From positions 4,128,001-4,192,000 of the forward strand of contig CM000153.2 of assembly GCA_000004695.1 (NCBI GenBank): a stretch of DNA of 64,000 nt, in the 5' to 3' direction. The notes beneath the pieces were generated by a model, which made no database searches, was not told the origin of the DNA, and saw only the letters and a list, made by a program, of their open reading frames with translations. The position numbers and the translations under genes were made by a program. This stretch comes from Dictyostelium discoideum (lineage: Eukaryota). The first letter of the stretch is position 1; the number at the start of each line of letters is the position of its first letter. Below, one piece after another: positions 16,793-61,191 of this stretch.

Positions 16793-17337
16793 AAATTTAA
16801 AAAACTAAAATAATAATAAAGAGTTTTTTTTTTTTTTTTTTTATAAAATCAATGATAAAATTTATAAAAAAATAAACATTTTATAAAAAAAAAAAAAAAT
16901 ATCTTTTGTAATTATTTAAATAATTCAAAAAAATGTTTTTTTTTTTTTTTTTTTTATAAAATAATGATATAGTGCGTTTTGAGCAAATTAATCATAAAAA
17001 AAAAAATTAAAAAAACTCACTCAAGTCAAACAAAAAAAAAAAAAAAAAAAAAAAAAAATAAAAAAAGGGTTTAAACTCGCTATAAAATATTAAAAAACTT
17101 TCTAAGTTAATTATTATGAATATTTTTTTTTTTATTTTAAAAATTTAAAACTATACAATAAAAATATTTTATACTAAAATTTTTTTGGAAATAAAATAAA
17201 TTGAATTTTATTTATTTATTTATTTTTATTATTATTATTATTATTATTAATATTATTATTATTATTATTTTTAAAATAAAAAAAAAATTAAAAAAGTTAT
17301 CTTTGTTTTGATAAAAGATTTTATTTTTATTTTATTT

Positions 17338-17437
17338 TATTTTTCTTTTTTTAATTTAAAAAAAAGTGGGGGAAAATATCTCCAACTATTTTTCTTTTTT
17401 TAATTTAAAAAAAAGTGGGGGAAATGTTTCACAGTTA
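17338..17437. repeat. Tandem direct repeat, 2 x ~49 bp.
   Basis: Seen: 'tttttcttttttttaatttaaaaaaaagtgggggaaaatatctccaacta' is followed by 'tttttcttttttttaatttaaaaaaaagtgggggaaatgtttcacagtt'. The G-rich core is unusual in this AT-rich context. It lies about 480 bp upstream of the transposase ATG and may be a sub-terminal repeat of the mobile element. Confidence 0.6.
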
Positions 17438-17629
17438 AAAAAAAAAAATTCACTCATTATTTTAACCAACTATAAATAAAATGAAATACAATTGGCCATA
17501 GTTTTTATAATAATAAACCATCACATCTACATTTTTGGTTAAAATGATCATTTTTTATTTTAAATAAAAAAACCACTTGCAGTTTATAATAATAAAAACA
17601 ATTAAAAAAACATAATTAATAAAACCAAA

Positions 17630-17915
17630 ATAATAATATAATTAATTATATTTATAATTGTAATAGAAATAGAAATAGAAATAGAAATAGAAATATTAAT
17701 AGCAATAGCTATATAGTAGTAATGGTAATAGTAATAGCAATAGAAATATAGTAGTAATAATTGTAATAATTGTAATAATTGTAATAATAGTAATAACAGT
17801 AATAGCAATAGAAATATAGTGGTAATAGTAATAATAGTAATAGCAATATAGTAGTAATAATAGTAACAATAGTGATAGCAATAGCAATATAGTAGTAATA
17901 ATAGTAATAATAATC
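17630..17915. repeat. Complex tandem minisatellite of AATAG(A/C/T) units.
   Basis: Seen: 'aatagaaatagaaatagaaatag...gtaataattgtaataattgtaataattgtaataatagtaataacagtaatagcaatag...'. The repeat lies directly upstream of the transposase start at 17918. It generates the spurious minus-strand ORFs at 17602..17887. Confidence 0.7.
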
Positions 17916-17917
17916 TA

Positions 17918-18646
17918 ATGAAACCTAAAAGAAGTTTAACTCACTTAATTGAGCATACTGAGAGAATATACAATGCATTAGAATATGGGGTTAGAATCGG
18001 TAATATAAGTAGAGCTGCTCGTGAAAATGGTTTGACCAGAAATCAACTCAATTATTACCGTAGAGATATCAAAGATAATAGAATTAGACAATCCCATGGC
18101 GGCTCCAGATCTCCAAGTACATTTACTACAGAACAGTATGAACTCTTGGTGGCAACTGTGGTAGCAATGGTTAATGTCCGACCTAATCTCACAATGAGGG
18201 AGATCGCCCAAGAAATTAACTCAGATCAAAATAGTATTTTTTATAAAAAGGTCAACAAATCGAGGATATGTTCAATATTCAAAGAATTAAAATGGAATTA
18301 CCACTCTCCAACCTATAAACAAGTAAGTAAAAAAGTTTTAATATATTAAATTACCAACTATTTGTTAATTTTTTTTTTTTTTTTTTAGGAAAATAAATAC
18401 AAAATTGAAAATTTATTAAAATTATTTTATTTTAATACAATAATTTACAATACTGATTGGAAAAACATTTATTTTTTAGATGAATGCTCATTTTCTTCTA
18501 GAGGTATTATATTTTATTATTTTAGATTGAATATAAATATTTATACTAATTTTTTTTTTTTTTTTTTTTAAAAAATATTTTTAATTAAATAATTGTCTTT
18601 CTTTCCATCCATTCTGAATTCCACTATTAACATTATAAGGTAATTA

Positions 18647-18701
<55 letters not shown>

Positions 18702-19268
18702 TACAAAATAAATAATTAAAACTAATAAGGTTTTTTATTAGGATTAAGGAGATCTAAAGCTGTTGGACCGATTGGAGAGCCGGTTTATGTTACCAATAGC
18801 ACCAGCATTTCTGAGACCTACAATGGGTTTTTCACCATCAGTTTGGATGATTGTTTGTATAAAATCCGTGATAAAACCAATAATACTGAAGACTTCTTTC
18901 AATATGTTAGAGAACTTTTGGAAAGTGGATTTTGCAAGCCTGGTTCATTATTGGTAATGGACAATGCTCCAATTCACGGTGGTATCGAAGCTTTAAATGC
19001 ACTATTTGAATTGTTTAATCAATATTCGGTTCAATTGATATTTCTTCCTTCCTATTCTCCAGAGTTGAATCCCATTGAGCGTTTCTTTGGCCATATCAAG
19101 AACCATTTCTACCGAGAACGTAATTCCCATGGGTCCTTCCTTGATGAGATTATTGACACCATCGATAATTCTCTAATTAAAAACAAAGAACTGTTCATTG
19201 GATTTTATCGCCAAAGCCTAAACTTCTGGTCTGAAAAAAAAAGAAATCAATACCAAAGAAAAAGGTGA
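17918..19268 (+). mobile_element. Tc1/mariner-superfamily DNA transposon transposase gene (DDE_3 type, DDT-like). CDS join(17918..18322,18389..18503,18742..19268), 348 aa. Element termini not defined.
   Basis: Seen: exon 1 encodes an HTH/paired-like N-terminus ('RAARENGLTRNQLNYYRRDIKDN...LTMREIAQEIN'), with a GTAAGT donor at 18323. Exon 2, 'ENKYKIENLLKLFYFNTIIYNTDWKNIYFLDECSFSSR', carries the first catalytic D in the 'FLDECSF' block (compare Tc1 'FSDESKF'). A GT donor lies at 18504 and the acceptor AG at 18740-41. Exon 3, 'GLRRSKAVGPIGEPVYV...LLVMDNAPIHGG...IFLPSYSPELNPIERFFGHIKN', provides the second D and the E of the DDE triad in the classic 'DNAPIH' and 'YSP(D/E)LNPIE' motifs. The 3' flank (19270-19620) has direct sub-repeats ('ttattgggataataacaaaagatattttt' twice; 'tgtttgatttg(a/g)a' twice). 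I could not identify the TIRs or a TA target-site duplication by eye. Confidence 0.8.
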
Positions 19269-19649
19269 AAAAAGAAAAATAATAAAAAAAAAAAAATAAT
19301 AAAAAAAAAAAAACAAATAAAAAAAAAAAAAAAAAAAAAAAAAAAGTGTTTGATTTGAAAAATTTAAAAAAAAAAATTAAAAAATGTTTGATTTGGATAA
19401 TCCGCACAATAAAATTATAAAAAAAAAATAAAAAAAATAAAAAAAAAACATTGTTTTGAATTATTGGGATAATAACAAAAGATATTTTTTTTTTTTACCC
19501 AGATATTTATTGGATTATTGAGATAATAGCAAAAGATATTTTTTTTTTTTTTTTTTTTTATTTATAAAAGTTGAAGGTTTTTTTTTTTTTTTTCATTCCC
19601 ATTATTTTTTTTTTACACTTAAGATTATAAAATAAATTTACACACAAAT

Positions 19650-20310
19650 AATAATAATTATGTAGATGAAAATCTATTTTGGAAAGTTTATAAAAATTTG
19701 TTTATTAGAGATTTAATATTTGATAAAATCATTTCAACAACAGTCATTTATAAATATGATGATGATAGTCTTAGTGGTGGTAAATTTATTGTACCTACTG
19801 ATAGAGCACAATATTTTAAAATATAATTTCTTTATCATGGATGATTAAAAGAAATTTATGGTCATTATTAAAGTATAAATTAATTCATAATGAAGAATTA
19901 ATTATAAAGAAAAAAGCAGTAGAATTACTATTACAAGAATGTAAACATGATAAAGATTTATTAAAATTATTCTATCAAAACAAGTATTATCAAATGAATC
20001 AAATTGATTTAATTTTAAATTCAATTAAACATTCAAATTTAATGGCATTAAAATTATTCATTGAAAAATATAATTACCAACAGATAATAATTCAATGGAT
20101 ATGGCACTAGAAATTACAAGTAGACAATATTATAGAAATGAAGAAGAACAAAAACAATCATTTGAAATTTTCCAATATTTTTGGGAAAAGAAAAAAGATA
20201 CTGTTCAATGCACTCAATCAGAGTTATTCAATCCAAATAGAAATTATAATACATATATGTTACAATTAATTTTAAATAATCCAAGTTTATATGGTGAATC
20301 TTCACAATCA

Positions 20311-20370
<60 letters not shown>

Positions 20371-22879
20371 ATTGGTTTAATGACATCAAGACAATTTTTT
20401 AATCTTGCAATTATGTCAGTAATACCTGAAAAAATTAAAATTGAATTACTTAATAGAGGATTTGTTAAAAATGAAAAAAGTATATATCGTGATGGTGATT
20501 ATATTGCTAAAACAATTCAAAAGCAATCACCATATCTTCCACAATCAGTTTATAGTTATTTAGAAAAGAGTTATCATTTGAATGAATTATATGAAAATCA
20601 TACCATTTCAGTTTTTTATTTTTTTAAAATATTAATTGAATATCCTGAAAAAGAAGATTCTCTTTCAATTTTAAAAAATTTCGTTAATGTAGCACACAAA
20701 TTTACAGATTTAGAAATTAAATCATATAAAACATTATCAATTAATCCAAAAAGTTATAAACCAAGTCAAAAAGTAGAAATTTTACAAGCTATTTCAAGTT
20801 TTCATTTTACATTGAAAATTAAGATAATAGAATCACTATTTCCGATTGATTCATTAACATTAAAATCTACACGATTCATTTTTGATAAATTAAAATATTC
20901 AATTGATAATGTTGGAACAATAGAACATGTTCCAAATGCAGAATTAATTCCACAAAGTTTTTATCATTTGAATATTATAAAAACAGCAGATGTAGATTTA
21001 CTTGACCAATTTTTAAATGAATTTCATTCAGATGCTGAAAGAAATTTAATATTTAGAATATATGATGAAAATCCATTAAATAAAGATTATTTCAAAGATT
21101 GTTCAATTCAAGATAGTGAAAAGATATCAAAACTCATCGATAGACTATCAAGTGTTAAAGAATTCAATTCAAATTCAAATTCATTTTTAAAATTGTTTAA
21201 AATCAAAACTTTTACCAATTTCGAGTGAATTATATATTTCAAGTTTATTAAAATTTAAAGAAACATCACGTAAACAAACATATATACACGCTAAAGTTTT
21301 AGACCAAGCATTATGTGATTTCTTTTCAGAAAAGAATAATTTAACATCAAATTTAACATCATTCATTAAATTCATTAATTTTAGAACTCTTGCAATTACA
21401 TATCTCATTGAAAAAGTTTTAAATTCCAATGATTTAGAACTTACAGAATTATTATTAAATACAATATGTAATAATAATAACAATAATAATAATAATGGTG
21501 CAGGTATTATAATGGCTCCAGTTTCTTTTAAAACATCCAATCCTGACATAATTAAATTAATCATTTCAAAAAGTAATTGTCATAAATTATTTGATTTTGA
21601 AGGTTTAATTGATACAGTTATTAGCGCCAGCAATGTTTGTAATATTAGTAATCCAAATACTGATTCTCAAACCATTGAATTAATTGAAATTGTTATTGAT
21701 TTTTTACATTCAAATAAAATTTATCAAAGAAATTCAAAAGAAGGATTTGGATTTGGATTTGGATTTGGATTTGGATTTGGAACAACGAATCAACAAGCTG
21801 AAAAAACAATAATTTCCAACGATGCAACAAAGATTGCACTTTTAAAGAAGAAATCCATTGAAATTTTACAACTTTTATTTAAATATAAAAACCTGTTTCA
21901 TTGGGATTCACAATTATTTCCAAAACTTCCAAAATTACCAACTATTCAATTGGATGATGAAATACTTCCAAAATCAGATAAACCAATAATGTCAATTTAT
22001 GAACACCAAGATTTAGAAGACCAAGATATATATCAATGTAGAAGAAGAAAGCCAAAAAATAAACATGGTGGTGGAAGTGGTAGAAGAAGAATTGATACCT
22101 ATGATGACACTGATTATGATGGCACCAATAACAACATTCCCTATATTGGTAGTATTGGTGGTAGTGTTTTTGCAAGTACTGAAGATTCAGTCAATGGTGG
22201 TCTTAGTAGTAGTAATAACAATAATAATGAATTAGGTAGTAATCAAAGTCAATTTATTCTTGGTGGTAATTTTACAGGTTTTAGTGTAAATTATCAGAGT
22301 AAAGATAAAAATAAGATTAGAAATCTATACAATACCAATTTCCTTGATAAATTTAAAACTCATCAAGCTCAATCAATATTTGATTCAATGGATCAATTCA
22401 ATAGAAATAATATGTTTTCATTTATACACTCGAGTAGTAGTGTTTTTCAAGATTCAATATATCATTCAATAAAGAATAGAAGAATAGATGTAATTGAAAA
22501 ATTAATAACTATTCAGATGTTTACAGATGATCATGCAAAATTAATTTATTCAGATTTTTTAAAAAGAATTATTAGAAAAGATGATGGTGTTGATTTAATA
22601 GCTTTTAAATACCTTTTTTCACATAGATTCCTCAAGATATTCAGTACAGAGTTTTTACAAACAATGTCACAAGAATTATTAATTTGTGCTGTTTCAGAAT
22701 GTTGTTTTCATCTTTGTCATTGGTTATTGTCAACAGATAATCCATGCAATGTATATGTTGAATTCTTGCCATTTAAAACAACCTATATTTTGAATGTCGA
22801 GAAAAAATTATCACATTGCGAATCACCAGTTTTCAAAGAATATATGATGAAAAAATTAAAACCTTTTATTAAATACTAA
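19650..22879 (+). pseudogene. Frame-disrupted locus encoding a Dictyostelium-specific protein. Segments: ~19650..19829, 19838..20110, 20095..21228, 21230..22879. Probable pseudogene, possibly unannotated short introns.
   Basis: Seen: four consecutive ORF pieces lie on the same strand, with neighbours always in different frames. Each junction overlaps or abuts by 40 nt or less. At the 20071-20108 junction no GT dinucleotide exists, so no intron can rescue it. At 21190-21228 only a 49-nt GTTTAA..CAAG 'intron' (21195..21243) would restore frame; it has the right length modulo 3 but is atypically short with a weak donor. The pieces include poly-N runs and a (GF)6 repeat 'EGFGFGFGFGFGFGTT'. The locus lies immediately 3' of the transposon. 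Confidence 0.5.
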
Positions 22880-33179: not shown

Positions 33180-34133
33180 TTATTGTGGAATTTTATAAGA
33201 AACAAAAGCTTCTACTGCTTCAAATTCGGTTAAACCTAAATTATCATAAATTTTAGCGGTTTCACGATTTCTACATTCAGCACGAACCCAAAATTCTCTT
33301 TTATCAGTTCCAGGAAAAGCTGGAACATCTTTTTGAGATTGATGTTTAAAGATTGACATACGTTTTCTCATCAATTCGAAAGGAGACATTGGTACGGCCA
33401 TTTCTATTCTTTCAGGTTCCCATTCTTGCCAAGCTCCACGATATAACCAAACTTGACATTCTTTCATCCAATCTTGAGTTTTCAAACGATCGATAGCCGA
33501 TAGAATAGCTTTCAAACAAACTCTATGAGTACCATGTGGATCTGATAAATCACCAGCGGCGAAAATGATCTCTGGTTTGATTGATTCTAAAAACTGAACC
33601 ATGATTTCAATGTCTTCCTCACCCAATGGTTTCTTTTTGACAGCACCAGTTTCGTAGAATGGTAAATCCAAGAAATGAATTCTATCAGGAGCCACACCAG
33701 CATAACGGGCACCAGCACGAGCCTCAGTTTTACGTATTAACCCTTTAATTAATTGAATCTCCTTTGAATCTGGTTGACCTGGTTTCTTGGTTTTAATGAA
33801 TTCATTGACATTCTTTTCAATGGTATTCGATCTCTCCACTGATTCATTACCCAATGAAAAAAGTTTACTAAATTCACTAGCGAAATTTGCAAATCTAACA
33901 GCATCATCATCCCAAACTGCAATATTACCACTGGTTTGATATGCAACATGAACCTTATGACCTTGATCACATAAACGAATGAATGTACCACCCATACTAA
34001 TCACATCATCATCTGGATGTGGTGAAAATACAATTACTCTCTTTGAAACTGGTTTAATATTACTATCATAATCCCACATTTCATTAATAATATTAATTTG
34101 TTCAAAACTACTATTATCATGATGTTGATGTTG

Positions 34134-34198
<65 letters not shown>

Positions 34199-35021
34199 TA
34201 CTATTATCACTACTATTTGTTTTTGGTGAAGTTGGTGAAGTTGGATGATGTTGATTTGGTCTACCTCCTGGCCAACCATTAATAGTTGATTGTAAATATC
34301 TAAAAACTTTAAGATTTAAATTATGACATGGACCAAATACTTTAAGTAATGAGGATAGGTTATGGTCATGGTATTCCTCTTCCTCAAGTTTTAATATTGG
34401 TTTACCCAATTTCAATGATAACCAAATCACAGCTTTTCTAGCCAACAATGGTGACCACTTAATTGTAAGAGTTGTTCCAGTGGAATGAATAACCCATGGT
34501 TGTTTACAACGTGTAATCTCTACAGCTGCAGCCTCATCAATTATCAACTGACACTTTTGATGACGTTGAAAAATGGTTGATGGTATAGCAGGAGTGATCT
34601 CACCCTCGGTTGTCTTCTGAACTATCGATGCCTTACCCTCGGAGAAAGCCATCAATATAATTCTCTTAGAGTTAAACATTGTTGATAAACCCATTGTCAA
34701 TGCATGATGTGGAACATGTTCAGTACCAAAGAAATCACTTGCTGCATCGATTCTTGTATTTTGCTCCAAATCAACCAAACGTGTCTTTGTATTAGCCAAT
34801 GACCCCGACTCATTAAATCCAATTCTTTTTCCAATTGGAATTAACATTAAATCAATACCACCAACTTGTTCAATCTTTTCTTCATATTCTTTTAAATGTT
34901 TATCAATTTCATTCTCTGAAATTTCACCATTTAAAAAATTTATATTTTCTTTTTTAATATCAATTAATTCAAATAAATTTTCTTGCATATATCTAGTTAA
35001 AATAAAATTATGTTAATATTT

Positions 35022-36496: not shown

Positions 36497-38135
36497 ATGA
36501 ATAAAATTATTACATTTTTATTTGTAATATTAGTTTTAAATGTATCATTAATCAATTGTCAATATGGTACACCAACTTTTAAAATTGATAATTCACCAAC
36601 TCTCCAATTAGTTAAACAATAGTAAGTAAATATATATTTTTTTTTTTTTTTTAACACATTTAAAATATTAATATTTTTAATTTTTTTTAATTTTTTTCTT
36701 TAGTAATCAAAGTCAAATTTATTCTTTATCATCAAGTGGATATGAAAAACCAATTATTATTGCAAATTTAACAGGTACTCATTATGAAATGGGATTTGCA
36801 GCAGGTTATTTAATGGCACAAGAAGCTTATGAAAATTATAATGTTATGGTTGGAGCAGTTTTACCAAAAACTTGGGAAAAGGATGCATTTGAGAAATTCC
36901 TTGATTGGCAATGGAATGATTATTTAAGTAAACAAATTACTCAAAATTATTTAGATGAAATCCAAGGTTACTCCGATGGTGCAATAGCAAGTGGTTTCAC
37001 TCAATTAGGTAAAACCATTGAACGTGGTGTTGTCATTAGTAGTTTTCCAGGTGACCCAACCGAAAATATTGAATATTTATTAAGAAATGAATTATTAGGT
37101 GGTTTCTCTGACTATTTAATTAGAATCGATAGATTGGATGTTTTATCAAAAATTAAAGAAATCATTTCCAATCAAGAAGAGGAAGATACTACTAGATCTT
37201 CAAAAGGATTACAATGCTCACATTTCTCAACTTGGGGTGATAAAACTTTTAATGGTGATATGTTTAATGGTAGAAATTTAGATTGGTTAAATGGATCAGG
37301 TATTAGTAATAATAAATTGATTACATTCTATAATCCAGTTGGTCAATATTCACATGCCGCTATTGGATTTGCAGGTTTAATTGGTGCAATCGTTGGTATT
37401 AGTTCCAAGGGTATTTTCGTAGCTGAATCTGATAATGACTCTGTAAAGGTTACTTTTGATGGTTTTGCATGGTCAATGAGATTACGTTACATCATGGAGA
37501 ATGCAGCCAACATCGAGGAGGCAGTATCACTATGGGAGTCCACTAACAATACAATGGGCATGTGCCACAGTCTTGCAAGTGCAACTGAGGCATCAACCGC
37601 TGAGCATCCAGCATTCGCTTTGGAAACTATGAAGGGATACACCGCATTCTTCTCTGACAACGATCCAAACGAACATTACATTTACACTGATCCAAAGACC
37701 GGTGAACAAACTCAAATGGGTTACCCATTAGACAACGCAGTCTATCGTACAAATCATGGTTATGATGAAACTATTCGTCAAAATGAATGGGAGCCAGCCA
37801 TCCCAAATGGCGATTCATGGACTCGTTACATGCTCTTCTATAACACCTTTTCTTATTACACCGCATCCAACACCACAATCTCTGAACTCCAAGCCATCAA
37901 CATCACCTCTATCCTTGGTAACAAACATAGCATCCAAGATATCTACTCTTCACCAGCTCCATTCTACGATTGTACTAACGCTTGGATGGGTTACAACATC
38001 ATCTCTTCAACTTTCCATTTTGCATCAAATAAAATGTTTGTAGCTTTTGAAGAAGGTTTTGGTCAACAAAGAATTTGTGCTGCTTGTGGTACTTATGTTG
38101 AAGTTGATTTAACACCATTTTTTGGTCCATTTTAA
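36497..38135 (+). CDS. Secreted N-terminal-nucleophile (Ntn) hydrolase-like protein (~518 aa), possibly peptidase C45 / acyl-CoA:6-APA acyltransferase-like or phospholipase-B-like. join(36497..36621,36704..38135).
   Basis: Seen: the signal peptide 'MNKIITFLFVILVLNVSLINCQ'. The exon 1 donor is GTAAGT at 36622 (phase 2), and the acceptor AG lies at 36702-03. The long exon 2 contains 'SSKGLQ|CSHFSTWGDKTFNGDMFNGRNLDW', a candidate autoprocessing site that would expose a Cys nucleophile, and ends '...AACGTYVEVDLTPFFGPF*'. The family call is inference from the general pattern, so confidence is low on the subfamily. Confidence 0.55.
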
Positions 38136-38228: not shown

Positions 38229-39686
38229 TTATTTTTTAAAATGTTCATTTAAAAATTGATCATAATCTATATTTTCACCATCATCATCATCATCAAGATC
38301 AATATCATCAATATTATAAGATTTATTATTATTATTTTGTTGATGATATTGATTTTTTAATTGATCTTGATCAATAATATCTTTATTTTCTAATTTCTTT
38401 TGTTTTAATAAATCAATTTTTTCTTTCTTTTCTAATGCTTCTTTTAATTGATATTTATAAGAATCTAATAGACTATTATTAATTTCTTCTTCTTCTTCTT
38501 CCTTTTCATTATCAATTTTATCTTCAAGATCAAATTTAGTTAAATTTTGAATTTCAATTTCTTGTTTTTCAAAATTTTCTTTTAATTCTTGTTTTTCTTT
38601 TTCTCTTTGTTCTTTTTTTAGTTTTTTTTCTTCAAGAATTAATTCTTGTTTTTTCTTTTCTTTTTCAATTCTTGTATTAATTTTATTTACTCTTTCTTTA
38701 AGTTTTTCTTCTTTTCTTTTAGTTTTACCATCATTTTCAAATTCTAAATGATCAATTGCAATTTTATTTGGAAATTCTATATAACGATTAGTGATTTTAA
38801 CAAATTGTTCAATTTGTAAATTTTGAGTTCTAATTTTTGGATCGATATCATCACCCAATAATGATTCAGCATCTTTACCAAGTGTTTTAATTGTATTTGA
38901 TAGTTTTTTACGTCTTTGAGAGAATAATTCTCTACATACAAATTCGAAATAATGATGATCTTTAACTGGTTCATCACCCAATGGTGAAATTCTTGGTTCA
39001 ATTGCAACCACTGATGCATCAACTTTTGGTGGTGGTACAAATGCGGTACCTGGTATTGAATATACTATAGAGGGTTGACACATTTGTTGTACCATAACTG
39101 ATAGACGTGAATATTCTTCTGAGCCTACTTGTGCACAGATTCTATCAGATAACTCCTTTTGAAACATTAAATACATTGGTACTCTACCAAATTCATATAG
39201 TCCTTGACGTGGAGCAATTTGACGAATCCATTTCAACATTAAATGTGTACCAACGTTGAATGGAAGATTACCAATGATTTTCACTTTGGATTTGTCTTTC
39301 CAATTTGTGGTTTCTGCACCTGCATCTCTTAATAGTTTAGCTTCATCAACATCCATCATGTTGGCCATAATTAATGACATTCTACCTCCACTTGATTCTT
39401 CTAACATTTTCAATGCTGGATAAAATCTTGGATCCATCTCTACTGCTATTACTTTTTTCGCTCCACTTGTTAATAAACTTCTTGTTAATCCACCTGGTCC
39501 TGCACCAACTTCTATAACTGTACAATCATCAAATCCACCTGATTTCTTACAAATTTTATCCGTTATATTTTTATCAATTAAAAAGTTTTGTGATAATTGT
39601 TGTTTTGCACTTAATCCAAAAATTCTAATAATTTCTTGAATTTTTGGCATTGGTGGTAATGATGTTGTTAAATTTTTAATTGTCAT
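38229..39686 (-). CDS. tfb1m: Mitochondrial rRNA adenine N6-dimethyltransferase / transcription factor B1 (KsgA-Dim1 family) with a long Glu/Lys coiled-coil C-terminal extension (485 aa, single exon).
   Basis: Seen: 'LPPMPKIQEIIRIFGLSAKQQLSQNFLIDKNITDKICKK...VIEVGAGPGGLTRSLL...IIGNLPFNVGTHLMLKW...FVPPPKVDASVV'. Established knowledge: the SAM-binding 'EVGxGxGxLT' and the 'NLPF/Y' motifs identify the KsgA/Dim1 fold, and the N-terminal block matches the human TFB1M motif 'AAKQLSQNFLLDLRLTDKIV' in the TFB1M branch. Confidence 0.85.
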   Translation of the reverse strand: MTIKNLTTSLPPMPKIQEIIRIFGLSAKQQLSQNFLIDKNITDKICKKSGGFDDCTVIEVGAGPGGLTRSLLTSGAKKVIAVEMDPRFYPALKMLEESSGGRMSLIMANMMDVDEAKLLRDAGAETTNWKDKSKVKIIGNLPFNVGTHLMLKWIRQIAPRQGLYEFGRVPMYLMFQKELSDRICAQVGSEEYSRLSVMVQQMCQPSIVYSIPGTAFVPPPKVDASVVAIEPRISPLGDEPVKDHHYFEFVCRELFSQRRKKLSNTIKTLGKDAESLLGDDIDPKIRTQNLQIEQFVKITNRYIEFPNKIAIDHLEFENDGKTKRKEEKLKERVNKINTRIEKEKKKQELILEEKKLKKEQREKEKQELKENFEKQEIEIQNLTKFDLEDKIDNEKEEEEEEINNSLLDSYKYQLKEALEKKEKIDLLKQKKLENKDIIDQDQLKNQYHQQNNNNKSYNIDDIDLDDDDDGENIDYDQFLNEHFKK

Positions 39687-45357: not shown

Positions 45358-46823
45358 ATGTCTCATCACCATCATCATCATCACCGTAGAAGTAGTAGTG
45401 TTTCATCACCATCATCACATAACAACTATTACAGTGGGCATCAACAACAAACACAACCACAACAATATAATAATTATTCACTTGACCAAAATTATGATCA
45501 AATGAAAAATGAATATAATAATTTATCAGAACTTGTACATAACATATATAATTCATTAAATTCATATTGTAATTCAATAAAAGGTAAACATATCTAATAT
45601 CTATTATATATATATATTTATAAATATTAAATAATAAACTAATTTAATTTATTTATTATTATTATTATATAAATAGATATTTATTTAAATTCAAATAGTT
45701 TTATGAATAATGTTTCAAAATTATTTGGTAATGAACATCCATTATCAAAATATGGTAATGGTGTTTTAATGATGGCAGATGAAAGTTTTAAAGATTGGAT
45801 GGATAATCAATCACCAAACTTTCAAATGTTGGGTGACTATTGTTATGATTTAAATATTGTAAAATCTAAAATCGATAAAGTCGATCAACTATCATTAGAG
45901 TTATCCCATCAAAATTTAGATGAATACATTCAATTAAAGGATGAAGTTTTTAGAGATGTTTCAAATCAATTTCAAGCAAGAGTAACAAGATTCGATATAC
46001 CTTTAATCAATACTCAATTCTCTCTCCCAAGTTTATATCAATGTTTAAATTCAATACATGAAACAAATGGTACTGAACAATTACAACAATCAATTGAAAT
46101 TGCTAATCCTGTAATCTCTTTATCACCTGATAATACAATTGCAATTAATACTGTAAATGATAATAATAATAATGATAATAATAGTAATAATAGTACACCT
46201 GAAATTATGACACGTGTTGGTATACCACCACAATCACAAGCACAACAACCACAAGCACAACAACAACCACCACAACAACAACAAAGAGTTAATACAGCAT
46301 CAACATTTTCAAGTCCAACAATGTTTTTATCTAAACCTGTAAAAACAGAGGTTACATATGCTGCACCACCAAAAACTTTACAAAAATTACCTGGTTCAAG
46401 AGAGTATACTAGACAATCTGTACCAACACCACAACAACAATCACCTTTAAAACCTATAGCTAGACCAAATTCTTTACCAAATAATAATAATATCAACACT
46501 ACAGCAACACAACCACCATTAAGACCAACACCAGTACCAACACCAGCACCAGTTGTTGAGCAACCAACACCAAGTGCACCACCACCTCAAAATCAACCAC
46601 CAATTATAATGGGTAGACAAGTTTTACCTCATAATCCAAATAGTAGTAATAATAATAATTCAATGGATAGTGGTAGTGGAGTTATTTCACAACCACTAAG
46701 ACCAGTACCCCATAAAAGTATTCAAAAAGGCTTCGTAGCTAGTAATGTTAATAAACCTCCTTTATCACCTTCTACTTCAACTCCAAATTTACAACAATAT
46801 CAACCACCACAACAATCACAATC

Positions 46824-46869
<46 letters not shown>

Positions 46870-47148
46870 CCTTTATCACTATCAAATTCAACTCCAAATT
46901 TATATCAAACACAACAACAACAACAACAACAACAATCACCTCTACCTCCAAAACCAAGACCATCTGTACAATTATCATCATCAACATCTACTTCACAACC
47001 ATTAAGACCTCAACCACCAATTTCTCAACAACAAGAGCAACCACCATCTAGACCAAGATCATTATCACTATCTCAACAACAAACACCAACCCAATCATTT
47101 GCAAGACCTTTACCAACAGCATTAAACAATAACAATAATAATAATTAA
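45358..47148 (+). CDS. P/Q-rich protein family member 1 (565 aa). join(45358..45583,45677..47148).
   Basis: Seen: exon 1 'MSHHHHHHHRRSSS...YDQMKNEYNNLSELVHNIYNSLNSYCNSIK' ends at a GTAAAC donor (phase 1). The acceptor AG lies at 45675-76. Exon 2 is 'DIYLNSNSFMNNVSKLFGNEHPLSKYGNGVLMMADESFKDWMDNQSP...FDIPLINTQFSLPSLYQCLNS...', followed by a long Pro/Gln/Ser/Thr-rich tail with poly-Q runs. The two ORFs in the track (45358..45597 and 45703..47148) are its exons. Confidence 0.7.
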
Positions 47149-48923: not shown

Positions 48924-50160
48924 ATTTATTATTTCACATTGAATTTATTTATTAAAAATATGTTTTAATTATTATTATTATTAATATTTAGATATTTACT
49001 TAAATTCAAATAGTTTTTTAAATAATTTATCAAATTATTATCATAATAGTAATAATAATAATAATAATAATAATGGGTATGGGACGACTACTGAACAACA
49101 TCCATTAGGTGATTATAGTAATCAAATTTTAATAAATGTTAATAAAACATTCGAAGAATGGGAATTTAATCAATCTAGTCATTTTCAATCATTGAATGAT
49201 TATTGTAATCAAATTGAACAAATCAAATCAAAGATTGAAAGATTAGATAAACAAATGAACACAGAATCACAAGAATATCAAACTTTAAAAAATCAAATAT
49301 TTAAAGATGTTCAACAACTTTTCGATTCCAGAGTTAATCAATTTGATATACCATTAATTAATATACAATTCTCATTCAATAGTTGTTTACAATCTTTAAA
49401 TTCAAATCATAATGATTCTTCATTCTTACTTCAACAACCAATTAATTTTAATAATCCCGTACAATCATTACAACCATTAAATAATAATAGTGGTGTTACA
49501 CCATTAAGACATGCACCACCTGTAAATAATCATCTACAACAAATACCAAGACCAACCACTTCATATACACCACCAAAACAATATGTACCATCACCTCAAC
49601 AAAAACATCATCAATATACACCACCTCAACCATATACACCACCTCAACAACAACAACAACAACACCAATATACACCACCTCAACCATATAATCCACAACC
49701 ACAACAATATCAAGAACAAATGTATGAAAAATCACAAGAACAACCACCAGAACAACCACCAAATTCAGGACCAAGAAAAGGAAAATCACAATTGAAACAA
49801 ATTGAAAGACCCACTCAAATAGAGCTACCTGATAAATCAGTGATTGAACCAAATCTAAAGAGAAAGCCAGGTGACTTTTTAAGAGATCCTAATGCTCCAC
49901 GTTTTGTTCCTGCTTCATCTCAACAGCAGCAACAACAACAACAACAACAACAACAACATAGTAATAAACCTTCAATGGAACATCATTCAATGTCATTAAG
50001 TGAATCTTATAAACAAAAGGTTGTACTTTCAAATGATATAAATGAGCATGGATCACAAGGAAGTGATAATCATTCCAACACCACTTCTAAACCACCTGTG
50101 AGAAAATTAGATAATACAATAAGAACACCACCATCAAGACCTACTCCTTTACCAAAATAA
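48726..50160 (+). CDS. P/Q-rich protein family member 2 (439 aa). join(48726..48876,48992..50160).
   Basis: Seen: exon 1 'MIKNTAPNKFVGNNKIVDPNYETLKNEFFKLSQNILTIYNSLNNNNKTMK' ends at a GTAAAA donor (phase 1); a poly-A tract follows. The acceptor AG lies at 48990-91. Exon 2 'DIYLNSNSFLNNLSNYYH...' starts identically to member 1's exon 2 ('DIYLNSNSFMNN...'). It continues 'FDIPLINIQFSFNSCLQSLNS' (member 1: 'FDIPLINTQFSLPSLYQCLNS') and then a Pro/Gln-rich tail with 'YTPPQPY' repeats. Confidence 0.7.
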
Positions 50161-51656: not shown

Positions 51657-53976
51657 GTAGAGTTTTAAATTTATTACCAAGTTTTAATTTAAAATCATTT
51701 TCCAACTTTTCAACATTTTCAAATGTTGAGTCTATAAATTTAAATCCTACAAATCCATCAATGATTTTCCCATTCCCAATAGGATTGTGTAATCTTAATT
51801 TTAATAATAGTTTGGGAAGTTTGTAAGTTTTCTTTCTTTTTTTTTTTTTTTTTTTTTAATTTTTTTATTCTAATAATTTTGATAAAATCCACATTCTAAT
51901 ATAAATTATAAAGAGAAATAAACTACCAAATAGATAAACCATTAGATTTTATAGACCTTTCAGCATTGGGAAATTTATTTTTATTGTAAGTTTTTTTACT
52001 AATATTCATTATCATTACATTTTCTTTAATTTATTAATTAATTTATTATTATTTTTTTTTTTTAAAAAATAAAGTTTAATGCCAAATGTGGGACCTTTAT
52101 TTAATGTGGATGGTGAATTTCCTTTTATTAATATGATTAATAGATTTTATATAAGATTGTAAGTGTTTTTTTATATTGGTGAAAAACATTTACATTTAGA
52201 TTTTAATTATTTTAAATTTAATTAATTTTTTTTTTTTTTTTTTTTTAAATTAGTGAATTTTCAAATGGAAGAATTAATAGTTTTAATTTTATAAATGCAA
52301 CAACATTGACAATGGAAAATAATGGTATGGCAGGTACGATACCAACAGCTTTTCCTGGTGATAGGAACATTAATCTAAAGGGTAATAAGTTGGTAGGAGA
52401 AATTGATGAAAGTTGGTGTGGTAATTTATTTGATATTAGTGATAACTATATAAGTGGTGAGCTTCCATCATGTTTTAAATGTCATTATTTACAACCATTA
52501 ATTAGTTCAACACTATCTGGTAATAGATTTAAAAATTTCGATCCAAATAATTTAGAACCATGTTTAGATTTAGAATTAAATTTAGAATATAATCATTCTT
52601 TCAACAGATCATTAACATTATATGGTAAAAATCTTGGTCCATTTGATAATTCATTAAGAATTTATGATATAGATAATATTGGACCTATTACTATTATAGC
52701 ATGCAAAGAATATAAGATTAGAAAGTTTACTTGGGTACCGGGAGATGCACCAAAAGCAATTAATTTAACTTTTCCTTTTTTACCACAAGGCCCAAGAACA
52801 TTTGAAATCTCTGCATATAATGAATTTTTACCACATATCGATAGTATAATTAGATATTCAGATTATTTTATTATTAGTGGTAAATACTTTGCATATAATA
52901 AGAGTGTTATTAATGTTTTAATTTCAAATCATTCATGTTCAATTATAACAAGTAATTTCAATGAAATTCAATGTTATCTTTCAAATTCAAATCAAATAAT
53001 AAATAGTAATAGCAATAAATTAATTGCAAGTATTATTCAAGTTATGAATGTTTCAAGTACATTTAATTTCACAGCGAATCAAGCATGTAATGGTAATAAT
53101 TGTCCAATCGCAGATTGTAATAAATATGGTGAATATAATTATGAAAGTGGTGTTTGTGATTGTTATTCAAATGAATGGAGAGGCTATTCATGTGAATTAA
53201 AATCATTAAATTGTTTAAGTAATGATTGTAGCGGTAATGGCTATTGTAATAGTATCATTGGTAAATGTCAATGTAATAAAAATAGAGCATTCGATGATTG
53301 TAGTGGTATATTATGCAATGATGGTAATGGTTGTTTTAATGGAGGTAATTGTAATTTTCAAATTGGGGTTTGCAATTGTTCATCCAAATGGATTGAAAGT
53401 TCAGGATGTGCAACACCCAAACAATCAATTGATTCACAACAATTAGTACAAACAAAAAACAATCAAATATTAACATTAATTGGTTGGTTTGGTAATATTA
53501 ATATATTTTTAACAGTATTAATCGATGGTAAAATTTGTGACATCACTTCAAATAATAATGAAACCATTCAATGTATTCCACCAAATTATCATTGTGATTT
53601 CATAAAGACCTCATCATTAGAATTATCAGTTTCTCAAAATAATTACATATGGAATGGAGTTTATAATCCAATATTTATTAATGGCTGTAGTAATAGCAAT
53701 GAAGGCAGTAGTGGTATCAATAACAGTTATAGTAATAGCAATGAAAAAGAAAATTCATCATTATCATACAAAAATCAATCTTTAGTTTTAATCCTATCAA
53801 TTGTGTTATCTTTAATTTTATTAGGTTTATTAGGTTTAGTTTTCTTTAAAAAATTAGTCATAAAAAATAATTATTTAAATATAAATAATATTGAAAATAA
53901 AATAAGACCGAGTGAATATGATAATGATCAACCAGATGAATTTTTAAAAAATAAAATTAAATTAATTGACCTTTAG
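50618..53976 (+). CDS. LRR + EGF-like + single-TM surface protein, tandem family unit 1 (899 aa, 7 exons). join(50618..50705,50818..51040,51148..51495,51661..51822,51914..51985,52075..52158,52254..53976).
   Basis: Seen: a signal peptide 'MFFIKNRVVILIFFLFICFKLNQSLIQSE'. All seven phases are consistent (1,2,2,2,2,2). Exon 7 carries plant-type LRR motifs ('MENNGMAGTIPTAF..LKGNKLVGEIDESW..ISDNYISGELPSCF'). It then has four Cys-rich EGF/tenascin-like repeats ('CNGNNCPIADCNKYGEYNYESGVCDCYSNEWRGYSCE','CLSNDCSGNGYCNSIIGKCQCN','CNDGNGCFNGGNCNFQIGVCNC'). A TM helix 'LVLILSIVLSLILLGLLGLVFF' and a short cytoplasmic tail '...QPDEFLKNKIKLIDL*' follow. Confidence 0.75.
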
Positions 53977-54504
53977 AGGCAATACCCCAAATTAAAAAAA
54001 AAAAAAAAAAAAACAGGTTCCCTTAGAGATACTCCAATTAGTTGGGTGGGTTGTTTTATTTCTCAAATTTAATTGTTTTTTTTTTTTTTTTTTTTAGTTG
54101 CTTCATTTTTACAAATAAATAATAAAAAATTTTATTCAAAAAAAAAAAAAAATTAATTAGTCAACCCTTAAAAAATATATGAATTCAAGGTGAATCTAAC
54201 ATATTTTAATATTTATATGGTCGCAAAATAAAAAAAAGGCAGAGGGATTTCACTGAAAGTTTTGGTGCATTTTTTAAAAAAAATAAAAAATAAAAAAAAA
54301 AAAAATTTAAAAAAAAATCTTAAAAGCGATAAAACTTTTCTTAGGATGAAAATTTTTTTATTTTTTTATTTTTTTTTTTTTTTTATTTTTTTTTTTTTCG
54401 AATTTAAAAATATCTCAAATGATTTAACAAGTGCGGGCAAAACAAAATTGATTTTTTTTTTTTTTTGTTTTTTTTTTTTTTTTTTTTTTAAAAAATCAAA
54501 AGGG

Positions 54505-55560
54505 ATGAAAATGAAAAGTAGAGGGTTCATATTATTTTTTATAATCATACTTTCAAATTTAAGCCAAGCAACTCTAGTTGAATCAGAATGTAAAAATAAT
54601 AGAATTTTAATAACACAAATAAATAAATAAATATTAATTCTTTTATTTTTATTTCTTATATTAGATAAATGTTTATATAATTTATTAAGTAAAATTTTAA
54701 AAGTATCAAAAAACTTTTATAAAGAATCTAATAATAGATATGCATTTTGTCAGACTGCTGATAAATCAGATTTTCTTTGGGCACAATGTTCTGAAGGTTC
54801 AGTTGAAAATATTTTTTTAGGTTCCAATAATAAAAGTACAATTTTTTCAAACAATGATTTTAATTGTTTTTCTTCTTTGCAAAATATGTAAGTCCTAACA
54901 ATAACAATAATAATAAATATCATTTTATTAATACTTTTTTTTTTTAAAAATAAAAAATAAAAAAAAGAGAAATATTTTTTAAATACAAATTTGAAAGAAA
55001 TTTTTTATTTGGGTTTTCAAGTAATTTATTTAATTTTAAATCACATTCTTCAGATGAATCATTAATTGATATGGATGTCAATGCTAACAAAACAATTTCA
55101 ATTAAATATTTATATATTAATCAATTAATAATTAAAAGAGATTTTAATATTTATTTTTCAAATTTTGTTAATGTCCGAAATTTTGAAATTGACACACTCC
55201 AATCAAACTACCAAATTAATTATATAAATGATTTGGTTAGTTTTAAATGTAATTTTGATACAATTTCATTTTCTTCAAATAATATACCATCAATGAATAA
55301 TATACTAGTAAATAATTTGTAAGTTTTTATTATTCTATTCTTTTTTTTTTTTTTTTTTTTAATATGAAATAATACTAAATTAATTAATCTATATTTATAT
55401 AATAGATATATAAAACTACTTTCAAATTTTAATATTGATTCATTTTTCAACTTTTCAACAAATACAAACATTGGTACTATAAAATTAAATTCATCAGATC
55501 CATCAATGCTTTTTCCATTTCCACCCCCTTCTTCTGTTCAATCATTGTAATTATTAATTA

Positions 55561-55648
<88 letters not shown>

Positions 55649-57732: not shown

Positions 57733-58250
57733 AGGTAAAATCCCAAAAAAACAGAAAAAAAAAAAATAAAAAAAATAAAAAAAATAAAAAAAAAAAAAAA
57801 AAAATTTGAAATTATCTATATCTGTGGGTCTTGATAATATCCATTATTTTATTCACAATAATCATTTTTTTTTTTTTTTTTTAATTTTGGGTTTTTTTTT
57901 AATTTATTTTTAGATTTTTTTTTTTTTTTTTTGGCTTTTTTTTTTTAATGGGCTCAAAAAAAAAAAAAAAAATTAAAATAAAATAAAATAAAACCCAAAA
58001 ATAAACTTTTTTAAATAAACAAATAAATAGGACACATAATCAAACTCCAAAATTTTTATTTTTAATTTTTTTTTGTTTAAGCATATTTTATTATTAGGAG
58101 CCGCATAAAAATAAAAAAAATAAAAGTAAAAAAAAAAGAGGCGACAAACCCACCAGCGCCCATAAAATTACTTTTCACCACTTTAATGTGAAGTGAACAA
58201 AAAAAAAAAATTGTTTTGTTTTTTTTTTTTTTAAACTCAAAATCTTTGTG

Positions 58251-59300: not shown

Positions 59301-59361
<61 letters not shown>

Positions 59362-61097: not shown

Positions 61098-61191
<94 letters not shown>

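What the first reader, a model, noticed from the sequence alone, without database searches (positions are those of the whole stretch)
17338..19620. Tc1/mariner-type DNA transposon with a three-exon DDE transposase, with unusual repeats on both sides
The spliced 348-aa product has the N-terminal HTH/paired-like DNA-binding region and the DDE_3 catalytic motifs ('FLDECSF', 'LLVMDNAPIHGG', 'LPSYSPELNPIERFF'). These are characteristic of Tc1/mariner/IS630 transposases, the superfamily to which the Dictyostelium DDT elements belong. All three catalytic positions are present, so this copy could be active. Upstream lie a 2 x 49-bp direct repeat with a GGGGG core (17338-17437) and a ~280-bp AATAG(N) minisatellite (17630-17915). 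Downstream (19270-19620) are paired sub-repeats. I could not recognise terminal inverted repeats or a TA duplication, so the element boundaries, and whether the neighbouring disrupted locus at 19.65-22.9 kb is cargo or an insertion victim, remain open.
Basis: partly seen in the sequence, partly recalled or inferred. Interest (0 to 1): 0.6.

Follow-up and report, generated by a model that had tools for sequence, protein, structure and literature searches.

The report
Low-copy Tc1/mariner transposon in Dictyostelium
This is a real 2.44-kb cut-and-paste (Tc1/mariner-type) DNA transposon in the Dictyostelium discoideum AX4 genome, with identifiable ends, a TA duplication and an intact transposase gene; it sits at different places in different strains, so it moved recently, but it is an ordinary kind of element and not one of the classical DDT transposons.

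Summary
The three-exon, 348-aa ORF is gene DDB_G0286157 of D. discoideum AX4. It matches Pfam DDE_3 (E=4e-19), and its predicted fold best matches the Mos1 and Sleeping Beauty transposases.

The element spans window 16970-19409 (2,440 bp). It has imperfect 26-nt terminal inverted repeats (T[A/T]GTGCG...CAAAT..A..CA) and TA on each side. Seven copies in three genomes, at six independent insertion sites, all show TA-TIR...TIR-TA. Homology to the copies at other sites stops within a few bases of these ends. The orthologous site in a divergent strain is empty.

The GGGGG-core repeat, the AATAG minisatellite and one downstream repeat pair lie inside the element. The other downstream repeat pair, and its inverted partner upstream, are flanking target DNA.

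This copy is an internal-deletion derivative. It has lost a second, orphan gene (ORF2) that longer relatives carry. The same deleted form occurs at a second locus, so it transposed after the deletion.

The four RNA-derived contigs available show only intron-1 retention or a distal acceptor, which predict a 143-146-aa protein carrying only the DNA-binding region. They match the other 2.4-kb copy better than this one. The downstream locus is a pseudogene outside the element, not cargo. The link to DDT elements is unsupported.

The parts
16968..16969 (.). Left TA of the target-site duplication.
   Evidence: TA immediately precedes the left end in all 7 copies compared, which occupy 6 independent insertion sites.
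16970..16995 (+). Left terminal inverted repeat: TAGTGCGTTTTGAGCAAATTAATCAT.
   Evidence: It is the best + strand match in the whole 64-kb window to the 25-nt TIR of the D. cf. discoideum element (19/25). It is identical in the L009 and L006 copies, which sit at other loci. Homology to L006 starts at 16968 and to L009 at 16966.
17022..17032 (+). Inner subterminal repeat CAAGTCAAACA, 53 nt from the left end. It is a candidate second transposase-binding site.
   Evidence: CAARTCAAACA occurs only 3 times in the window, all in the element ends and in mirror orientation. It is conserved in L001, L006 and L009.
17273..17274 (.). Junction of the internal deletion that removed ORF2.
   Evidence: Element positions 1-304 align to L006 element positions 1-302. 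The next 1,664 bp of L006, which hold the ORF2 homologue, are absent here. The L009 copy has the same structure.
17338..17424 (+). Two 38-nt identical direct repeats with a GTGGGGGAAA core, 49 nt apart. They are internal, about 500-580 bp upstream of the ATG, and may be a promoter element (inferred).
   Evidence: D19. The motif AAAAGTGGGGGAAA is also present inside the L001, L006, L007 and L009 copies and absent from the D. cf. discoideum copies.
17629..17914 (+). AATAG-type minisatellite. It is internal, lies directly upstream of the start codon, and is partly transcribed as 5' UTR.
   Evidence: TRF. It is shorter in L001. RNA-derived contigs begin at window-equivalent 17724-17881.
17918..18322 (+). 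Transposase exon 1 (aa 1-135): two helix-turn-helix bundles.
   Evidence: The structure model gives helices 7-52 and 71-123. The donor at 18322|18323 is used in two RNA contigs.
18323..18388 (+). Intron 1 (66 nt) as required for the full-length protein. An alternative distal acceptor lies at 18479|18480.
   Evidence: GT-AG boundaries. The proximal acceptor was not seen in any of the 4 RNA contigs. The distal acceptor is used in L010 and L011, and the intron is retained in L012 and L013.
18389..18503 (+). Transposase exon 2 (16.5% GC). It encodes the first catalytic Asp (FLDECSF).
   Evidence: The exon-2 peptide is conserved in the 63-64%-identical subfamily (P0004).
18504..18741 (+). Intron 2 (238 nt). 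An alternative acceptor 12 nt upstream (18729|18730) is the one used by the database annotation.
   Evidence: The 18503 donor and the 18742 acceptor appear in 3 RNA contigs, and the 18730 acceptor in 1. The annotated 352-aa P0001 carries the extra residues FLLG.
18742..19268 (+). Transposase exon 3, with the second Asp (VMDNAPIH), the Glu (NPIE) and the stop codon.
19347..19357 (-). Inner subterminal repeat CAAATCAAACA, 53 nt from the right end.
19384..19409 (-). Right terminal inverted repeat (read on the - strand: TTGTGCGGATTATCCAAATCAAACAT). It contains the outer CAAATCAAACA site.
   Evidence: It is the best - strand match in the window to the reference TIR (18/25). Homology to L006 ends at 19412; the alignment to L009 runs on to 19423 through similar A/T-rich flank, with the L009 right TIR ending at the position equivalent to 19409.
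19410..19411 (.). Right TA of the target-site duplication.
16899..16928 (-). NOT part of the element: flanking 30-nt near-palindromic motif, in inverted orientation.
   Evidence: It is absent from the flanks of the copies at other loci. The empty orthologous site has a single copy.
19456..19539 (+). NOT part of the element: two flanking copies of the same 30-nt motif (19456-19485 and 19510-19539).

Best explanation
Window 16970-19409 is a non-domesticated, low-copy Tc1/mariner (IS630-Tc1-mariner) cut-and-paste DNA transposon of Dictyostelium discoideum. It is bounded by imperfect 26-nt terminal inverted repeats and a TA target-site duplication.

Its single gene (DDB_G0286157, three exons) encodes a 348-aa transposase. 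The protein has a bipartite helix-turn-helix DNA-binding region and an RNase-H-fold DDE domain with D166, D247 and E286, a DD38E spacing.

By analogy with Tc1, Mos1 and Sleeping Beauty (inferred, not shown here), the transposase would bind the outer site in each TIR. It probably also binds an inner copy of CAARTCAAACA 53 nt from each end. It would then pair the ends, excise the element and reinsert it at a TA.

This copy is an internal-deletion derivative. Longer relatives (3.4-3.5 kb) carry a second, divergently oriented orphan gene (ORF2) between the left end and the transposase gene. The deleted 2.4-kb form has itself moved, because the same form sits at a second locus.

The chr4 insertion landed in an A/T-rich intergenic spacer, 222 bp upstream of a gene that is now a pseudogene in AX4. 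The available transcripts would produce mainly a truncated protein carrying only the DNA-binding region, so output of full-length transposase may be limited by splicing (inferred).
For: Protein identity: Pfam DDE_3 E=4e-19. The DDE residues are invariant in an alignment with Mucorales Tc1-like proteins. The AlphaFold model has pLDDT 74, two helical bundles and an RNase H fold. The top Foldseek PDB hits are Mos1 (E=1e-8), the Sleeping Beauty catalytic domain and SETMAR.

Ends: in D. cf. discoideum a 63-64%-identical transposase lies in a 3.46-kb element. It is 99% identical across 3 independent loci plus one segmental duplicate, with 34-35-nt near-perfect TIRs (one mismatch) and TA/TA. The best matches to that TIR in the whole window are at 16970 (+) and 19409 (-). 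Copies in two other D. discoideum assemblies lie at different loci (L001, L006, L009). Homology to the window begins at 16966-16968; it ends at 19412 in L006 and at 19423 in L009, where it extends through similar A/T-rich flank. All 7 copies are flanked by TA-TA.

Empty site: the orthologous locus in GCA_054859385.1 aligns up to 16961 and resumes at 19511, with no element between.

Deletion derivative that moved.

Second AX4 copy: DDB_G0272288 differs by 3 aa.

Constraint: dN/dS among copies is 0.11-0.5.

Subterminal repeats.

Transcripts.
Against: The two TIRs of this copy match each other at only 18 of 26 positions, so a TIR finder alone does not pick them out. Activity is inferred from copies at different loci, not demonstrated.

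None of the four RNA contigs uses the proximal intron-1 acceptor needed for the full-length protein. All four match the chr2-type copy (99.6-100%) better than this copy (98.6-99.6%). Expression of this copy and of full-length transposase is therefore unproven.

The empty-site junction cannot be resolved to the nucleotide. The strains differ by about 7% there, and AX4 has a local ~110-bp duplication.

The AX4 chr2 copy was seen only as a protein and through the near-identical strain GCA_054883475.1, not as AX4 DNA. The two 2.4-kb copies differ so little (dS 0.005) that their intact ORFs could reflect youth rather than selection.
Confidence: 0.9

Rival explanations
1. It is a domesticated transposase: a host gene derived from a transposon, fixed in place and kept for a cellular function.
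For: The ORF is intact, dN/dS is below 1 among copies, copy number is low, and the gene is annotated as an ordinary protein-coding gene.
Against: TIRs and the TA duplication are retained. The same element lies at different loci in different strains. The orthologous site is empty in GCA_054859385.1. A near-identical second copy exists on another chromosome.
Confidence: 0.03
2. It is an immobile relic. It is a recent but now dead copy whose intact ORF reflects only its youth, and it makes no functional transposase.
For: The TIRs are imperfect (18/26). The observed mRNAs retain intron 1 or use a frameshifting acceptor. ORF2 is lost. The two 2.4-kb copies differ by only 3 nt in the CDS, so there has been little time for decay.
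Against: The same TIR variant (TAGTGCG...) is found on three copies at three loci, so it has been mobilised. The ORF2-less form itself transposed. Comparisons with more distant copies show purifying selection (dN/dS 0.11-0.18 against L001). The exon-2 peptide is conserved in the 63-64%-identical subfamily.
Confidence: 0.3
3. It is a member of the DDT (DDT-A/B/S) group of Dictyostelium DNA transposons.
For: None from the tools.
Against: PMC5633606 states that none of the Tdd, DDT or thug transposases resemble known transposases, whereas this protein is a clear DDE_3 match. Tdd-4 and Tdd-5 are integrase-like Ginger2 elements (PMC2836005). As I recall it, the original DDT description (Glockner 2001) calls DDT a new class; that paper was not held. 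No DDT-named protein appeared among the named hits. The large HMMER library carries no names.
Confidence: 0.04
4. The inverted repeat at 16888-16954 / 19430-19496 marks the true, longer termini, or the ends of a foldback or MITE-like element into which the transposon inserted.
For: The arms are 67 nt and 91% complementary, and they bracket the element (I3). The 30-nt core occurs only at these three places in the window.
Against: The copies at other loci do not share these flanks; homology stops at or within about 14 bases of the TIR/TA. The empty orthologous site still has one copy of the motif. AX4 carries an uninterrupted paralogue of the target (…CAATGATAAAATTT…, 16843-16870) about 110 bp upstream. 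That fits a local tandem duplication of a near-palindromic spacer unit.
Confidence: 0.08

Closest known systems
Tc1/mariner (IS630-Tc1-mariner) superfamily, Tc1-like DD34E branch, with Mos1 and Sleeping Beauty as structural references
   Same: It shares the DDE_3 catalytic domain, the RNase H fold and the bipartite N-terminal HTH region. It also shares the short TIRs, the TA target-site duplication and a 2-3.5 kb size.
   Different: Sequence similarity to solved transposases is marginal (SB E=1). The second Asp to Glu spacing is 38 residues, because of a 4-residue insertion relative to the Mucorales DD34E relatives. The gene has two introns. Full-length relatives carry a second orphan gene.
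Tc1-like DDE_3 elements of Mucorales fungi (Rhizopus, Rhizomucor)
   Same: They are the closest named non-Dictyostelium homologues. The DDE region has the same domain order, and the motif PSYSPELNPIE is identical.
   Different: Identity is only 22-25% over the whole alignment and 28-32% locally. The fungal proteins have a ~20-residue insertion between the catalytic strands and a DD34E spacing. There is no evidence of recent transfer. Several Dictyostelium lineages at 35-44% identity show that the family has long been resident in this species group.
IR-DR type Tc1 elements (Sleeping Beauty, Tc3)
   Same: There are two copies of a candidate binding motif per end, an outer one at nt 15-25 and an inner one at nt 53-63.
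   Different: The ends are much shorter than the ~230-bp IR-DR. The left outer site is degenerate. The D. cf. discoideum subfamily lacks the inner copy. Binding has not been tested.
Classical D. discoideum DNA transposons (DDT-A/B/S, Tdd-4/5, thug)
   Same: They share the host genome and are all class II elements.
   Different: The literature describes their transposases as unlike known transposases (DDT, thug) or integrase-like with 5-bp duplications (Tdd). This element is a standard DDE_3/TA element present in only 2-4 copies.
P element truncated-repressor splicing (functional analogy only)
   Same: The observed mRNAs would encode only the N-terminal DNA-binding part of the transposase, through intron retention or an alternative acceptor.
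   Different: The transposase family is unrelated. No repressor activity or regulated switch has been shown. The pattern may simply reflect poor recognition of an exon with 16.5% GC.

Membership tests
Tc1/mariner (IS630-Tc1-mariner) superfamily | DDE/D catalytic domain of the DDE_3 / RNase H type with all three acidic residues. | tested here: met
   Pfam DDE_3 at 69.3 bits against a 28.6-bit cut-off. D166, D251 and E290 (P0001 numbering) are invariant or nearly so across 18 sequences. The fold matches Mos1, SB and SETMAR.
Tc1/mariner (IS630-Tc1-mariner) superfamily | N-terminal bipartite (paired-like) helix-turn-helix DNA-binding region. | tested here: met
   The AlphaFold model has two three-helix bundles (7-52 and 71-123, pLDDT 82-92) joined by a disordered basic linker. 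Full-length Mos1 aligns over about 350 columns. Pfam gives only a weak HTH_8 hit (E=0.039). DNA binding was not tested.
Tc1/mariner (IS630-Tc1-mariner) superfamily | TA target-site duplication. | tested here: met
   All 7 copies, at 6 independent insertion sites, have TA on both sides.
Tc1/mariner (IS630-Tc1-mariner) superfamily | Terminal inverted repeats at which homology between copies ends. | tested here: met
   The TIRs are near-perfect over 34-35 nt (one mismatch) in the D. cf. discoideum subfamily and match at 18/26 positions in this copy.
Tc1/mariner (IS630-Tc1-mariner) superfamily | Mobility: the same element at non-orthologous sites, and an empty orthologous site. | tested here: met
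   L001, L006 and L009 lie at other loci. The site is empty in L008.
DD38E / Intruder family of Tc1-like elements (animals) | 38 residues between the second Asp and the Glu. | tested here: met
   D247 and E286 in the 348-aa model.
DD38E / Intruder family of Tc1-like elements (animals) | Phylogenetic grouping with Intruder transposases. | not tested
   No Intruder sequences were available. The nearest named relatives are DD34E-spaced Mucorales proteins. The spacing here is explained by a lineage-specific 4-residue insertion, so convergence is more likely.
Dictyostelium DDT elements | Sequence similarity of the transposase or termini to DDT-A, DDT-B or DDT-S. | not testable with these tools
   No DDT sequences were accessible. 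The literature statement that DDT transposases resemble no known transposase conflicts with a clear DDE_3 match.
Domesticated transposase gene | Fixed orthologous position with loss of TIRs and of mobility. | tested here: not met
   The TIRs and TA are retained. The site is empty in another strain. Copies occur at other loci.

The most novel reading that the evidence does not exclude
D. discoideum may harbour a currently active native cut-and-paste transposon family that limits its own activity by splicing. Under this reading the default mRNAs (intron-1 retention or the distal acceptor) make a 143-146-aa protein with only the DNA-binding region, and this protein competes for the ends. Use of the proximal acceptor, perhaps stage-specific, would yield transposase. 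The ancestral two-gene form would carry a previously undescribed accessory protein (ORF2: a Cys/His cluster, a ~120-residue coiled coil and a Cys-containing C-terminal domain) that is dispensable in cis.
Probability: 0.15. Interest if true: 0.6.

Novelty: new member of a known kind. Interest (0 to 1): 0.35.

Why it matters
The published D. discoideum transposon catalogue lists Tdd, DDT and thug as its DNA transposons and describes their transposases as unlike known ones. A conventional Tc1/mariner element therefore adds a missing, well-understood class to this model organism. It is present in only 2-4 copies, which may explain why repeat-based surveys missed it.

Its placement at different sites in different strains, together with an intact transposase, makes it a candidate native tool for insertional mutagenesis and a marker for strain history. 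It also corrects the gene annotation: DDB_G0286157 and DDB_G0272288 are transposon genes, not host genes.

The splicing pattern and the orphan ORF2 are modest leads for transposon regulation. Otherwise the element is ordinary.

Tried and rejected
- A direct TIR search on 16-21 kb returned only low-complexity pairs and the flanking 67-nt inverted repeat, not the real ends. Comparison with other copies was needed.
- I considered the 67-nt inverted repeat as the true terminus and rejected it.
- The exact-protein look-up of P0001 found nothing. The same was true for the upstream 345-aa ORF and for the 825-aa ORF.
The orthologous loci were reached through the deaminase gene and cluster members.
- Glockner 2001 and the genome paper are not held in the paper library. 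The gene identifiers appear in no paper.
- ORF2 has no Pfam match and no homologues outside D. cf. discoideum apart from a 35%-identical frame in L006. Its structure model was too poor (pLDDT 48.7) for a fold search.
- A TIR-like sequence at L006:20971 proved to be a chance match.
- I considered recent horizontal transfer because GC3 is 0.31 against 0.08-0.18 in neighbouring genes. It is not favoured, because lineages at 35-44% identity exist across the D. discoideum species group.
- Sequence search of PDB gave only a marginal Sleeping Beauty hit (E=1). The fold search was decisive instead.
Full report
**What the sequence is.** The window is about 21% G+C. The spliced product is 99% identical to D. 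discoideum AX4 protein DDB_G0286157, on a 5.45-Mb record, chromosome 4.

It matches Pfam DDE_3 at E=4.1e-19, well above the curated cut-off. The database model is 352 aa because it uses an acceptor 12 nt upstream in intron 2.

**Protein class.** In an alignment with its Dictyostelium relatives and Mucorales Tc1-like proteins, the second Asp and the Glu are invariant. The first Asp lies in a conserved FLDE motif. In the 348-aa model the triad is D166, D247 and E286, which puts 38 residues between the last two. The fungal relatives have 34, and the difference is a 4-residue insertion.

An AlphaFold model (pLDDT 74) shows two N-terminal three-helix bundles separated by a disordered basic linker, followed by an RNase H fold. 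Its best matches among solved structures are the full-length Mos1 mariner transposase (E=1e-8), the Sleeping Beauty catalytic domain and the SETMAR transposase domain. Sequence similarity alone to solved structures is marginal. The Tc1/mariner assignment is sound.

**Finding the ends.** A direct inverted-repeat search did not reveal the termini. Related copies did.

In D. cf. discoideum (GCA_054859205.1), a 63-64%-identical transposase (P0004) is encoded at four places. These share a block of about 3.46 kb at 99% identity, and the homology stops sharply. Two of the four places lie in one segmental duplication, so they represent three independent insertions. The block ends in near-perfect 34-35-nt inverted repeats with one mismatch (TTGTGCGTTTTGGACAAATCACCCAA...). 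It is flanked by TA on each side at the three independent loci.

I scanned the whole 64-kb window with the first 25 nt of that repeat. The best + strand hit is at 16970 (19/25) and the best - strand hit at 19409 (18/25). They bracket the transposase gene in the correct orientation, and each abuts a TA.

**Independent confirmation from other strains.** Three other D. discoideum copies lie at different genomic sites:
- L001 (GCA_054859385.1), 3,393 bp.
- L006 (GCA_054883475.1), 3,404 bp.
- L009 (GCA_054883475.1), 2,406 bp.

Their similarity to the window starts at 16966-16968. It ends at 19412 in L006. In L009 the alignment runs on to 19423 through similar A/T-rich flank, but the L009 right TIR ends at the position equivalent to 19409.

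A table of seven copies shows TA-T(T/A)GTGCG...CGCACAA-TA in every case. An alignment of ten termini gives the conserved core.

The orthologous chromosome-4 locus was recovered from two strains. In GCA_054883475.1 (99.7% identical to the window over 21 kb) the element is present. In GCA_054859385.1 (about 93% identical flanks) the alignment runs to 16961 and resumes at 19511, so that site is empty.

The element is therefore 16970-19409 (2,440 bp) with a TA duplication. It is an insertion polymorphism, not a fixed gene.

**What the repeats are.**
- The 38-nt identical repeats with the GGGGG core (17338-17424) and the AATAG minisatellite (17629-17914) lie inside the element, upstream of the start codon. 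They recur in the copies at other loci.
- The 38-nt tandem pair at 19320-19395 is also internal. It duplicates the inner part of the right TIR.
- The motif CAARTCAAACA occurs only three times in the window. One copy is 53 nt from the left end. The others are 15 and 53 nt from the right end, in mirror orientation. This resembles the two-sites-per-end layout of IR-DR Tc1 elements. Binding is inferred, not tested.
- The 30-nt motif at 19456-19485 and 19510-19539, and its inverted copy at 16899-16928, lie outside the TIRs. They are absent from the flanks of other copies. The empty site has one copy.
- AX4 carries a local ~110-bp duplication of this near-palindromic spacer. An uninterrupted paralogue of the target (...CAATGATAAAATTT...) survives at 16843-16870. 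These repeats are target DNA, not termini.

**A deletion derivative that has moved.** The longer copies carry a second gene on the opposite strand, between the left end and the transposase gene. In D. cf. discoideum it encodes 384 aa from two exons. Its features are:
- a conserved N-terminal Cys/His cluster, a ~120-residue coiled coil and a Cys-containing C-terminal domain;
- no Pfam match;
- no homologues beyond this transposon family.

The window copy lacks this region. Element nt 1-304 and 1009-2440 align to L006, and the 1,664 bp in between are missing.

Each copy has its own deletions. L001 lacks the transposase 5' end. L006 lacks the upstream region and the first 20 codons. The window copy and L009 are the only ones seen with a complete transposase ORF.

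L009 has the same 2.4-kb structure as the window copy (97.3% identity over 2,467 bp) but sits between actin genes. Its protein matches the second AX4 gene, DDB_G0272288, on the 8.48-Mb chromosome. So the ORF2-less form transposed after the deletion. ORF2 is either dispensable or supplied in trans.

dN/dS among copies is 0.11-0.5 on small counts.

**Transcripts.** Four short contigs assembled from sequencing runs SRR24091725, SRR24091727, SRR24091728 and SRR24091729 are spliced, so they derive from RNA.
- Intron 2 is removed in all four. The donor is at 18503; the acceptor is 18742 in three contigs and 18730 in one.
- Intron 1 is retained in two contigs. In the other two it is spliced from 18322 to a distal acceptor at 18479|18480, which shifts the frame.
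- None uses the proximal acceptor at 18388|18389 that the 348-aa protein needs.

All four predict a 143-146-aa product consisting of the two HTH bundles. They match the L009-type copy at 99.6-100% and the window copy at 98.6-99.6%, so expression of the window copy itself is not shown.

The exon-2 peptide is conserved in the 63-64%-identical subfamily, so the three-exon model remains the likely functional message. Its abundance is unknown. This could be self-limitation by a truncated DNA-binding protein, or merely weak recognition of an exon with 16.5% GC.

**Neighbouring locus.** In GCA_054859385.1 the downstream gene is an intact, intronless 1,105-aa ORF. In AX4 its start codon is ATA (19632-19634) and at least three frameshifts follow. 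It lies outside the right TIR, so it is not cargo. The insertion is 222 bp upstream of the former start, in what was probably its promoter. A causal link is possible but untested.

**Relation to known families.** The element meets every defining feature of Tc1/mariner that I could test.

A review states that the Tdd, DDT and thug transposases resemble no known transposases. Tdd-4 and Tdd-5 are integrase-like. I could not obtain DDT sequences, so a direct test is still missing.

An exhaustive HMMER search found 2,604 relatives. The closest hits that carry names are further Dictyostelium lineages at 35-44% identity, from D. discoideum, D. cf. discoideum and D. dimigraforme. Unnamed metagenome and Logan-assembly proteins (about 31-32% identity) and Mucorales proteins (28-32% locally) follow. 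The family is therefore old in this species group, even though its GC3 (0.31) is far above that of neighbouring genes (0.08-0.18).

I found no paper that mentions either gene identifier.

**Verdict.** This is a genuine, conventional Tc1/mariner transposon whose boundaries are now defined. It is an ORF2-less deletion derivative with an intact transposase gene, it was recently mobile, and it is polymorphic between strains. It is new as a described element of D. discoideum, but it is a new member of a very well-known kind.

Noticed in passing
window 19632-22879: The downstream neighbour is a pseudogene in AX4. Its start codon ATG has become ATA at 19632-19634, and at least three frameshifts follow. 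The orthologue in strain GCA_054859385.1 (L008 10889-14206, minus strand) is an intact, intronless 1,105-aa ORF, and that strain has no transposon at this site. The insertion lies 222 bp upstream of the former start.
   Followed up: partly
window 16800-16969 and 19412-19560: AX4 has a local ~110-bp tandem duplication of the intergenic spacer, containing a near-palindromic 30-nt motif (TTGAATTATTNNNATAATNACAAAAGATAT). There are three copies in AX4 and one in the empty site of the other strain. An uninterrupted paralogue of the insertion target survives at 16843-16870.
   Followed up: partly
L002 8200-9422 (minus); L006 8639-9058 (minus): Full-length relatives of the element carry a second, orphan gene (384 aa). 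It has an N-terminal Cys/His cluster, a ~120-residue coiled coil and a Cys-containing C-terminal domain. It has no Pfam match and no homologues outside this transposon family. It is absent from the window copy.
   Followed up: partly
window 18323-18503; loci L010-L013: RNA-derived contigs show intron-1 retention or a distal acceptor at 18479|18480, and never the proximal acceptor. They predict a 143-146-aa protein with only the HTH region. The contigs match the chr2-type copy better than the window copy.
   Followed up: partly
window 18729-18742: The database protein (352 aa) uses an intron-2 acceptor 12 nt upstream of the one used in three of four RNA contigs. This adds four residues (FLLG) inside the catalytic domain that the related subfamily lacks.
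   Followed up: yes
window 17918-19268: The transposase coding sequence has GC3 of 0.31, against 0.08-0.18 in seven neighbouring ORFs. Exon 2 alone is only 16.5% GC.
   Followed up: partly
L003 and L004 (D. cf. discoideum): Two of the four D. cf. discoideum copies lie inside a segmental duplication of more than 12 kb that also carries TgrO1-type Ig-domain genes. So the four loci represent three independent insertions.
   Followed up: no
L007 3616-8751: In strain GCA_054883475.1 the automatic annotation fuses the transposase and the downstream pseudogene into one 1,310-aa gene model. In L009 it fuses the transposase with an actin gene (596 aa). Both are annotation artefacts.
   Followed up: no
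window 52306-61457: There are three tandem paralogous ORFs (553-563 aa) with ComC-like beta-sandwich, TIG and teneurin-type EGF domains. Elsewhere there are ordinary host genes: PIG-L at 33180-34988, an AAT-family gene at 36789-38135, and an rRNA adenine dimethylase at 38229-39686. No tRNA genes occur in the window.
   Followed up: partly
window 45703-47148 and 49192-50160: Two ORFs (481 and 322 aa) sit in relatively GC-rich bins with strongly negative GC skew (-0.52 and -0.39). Neither has a Pfam match. They were not examined further.
   Followed up: no
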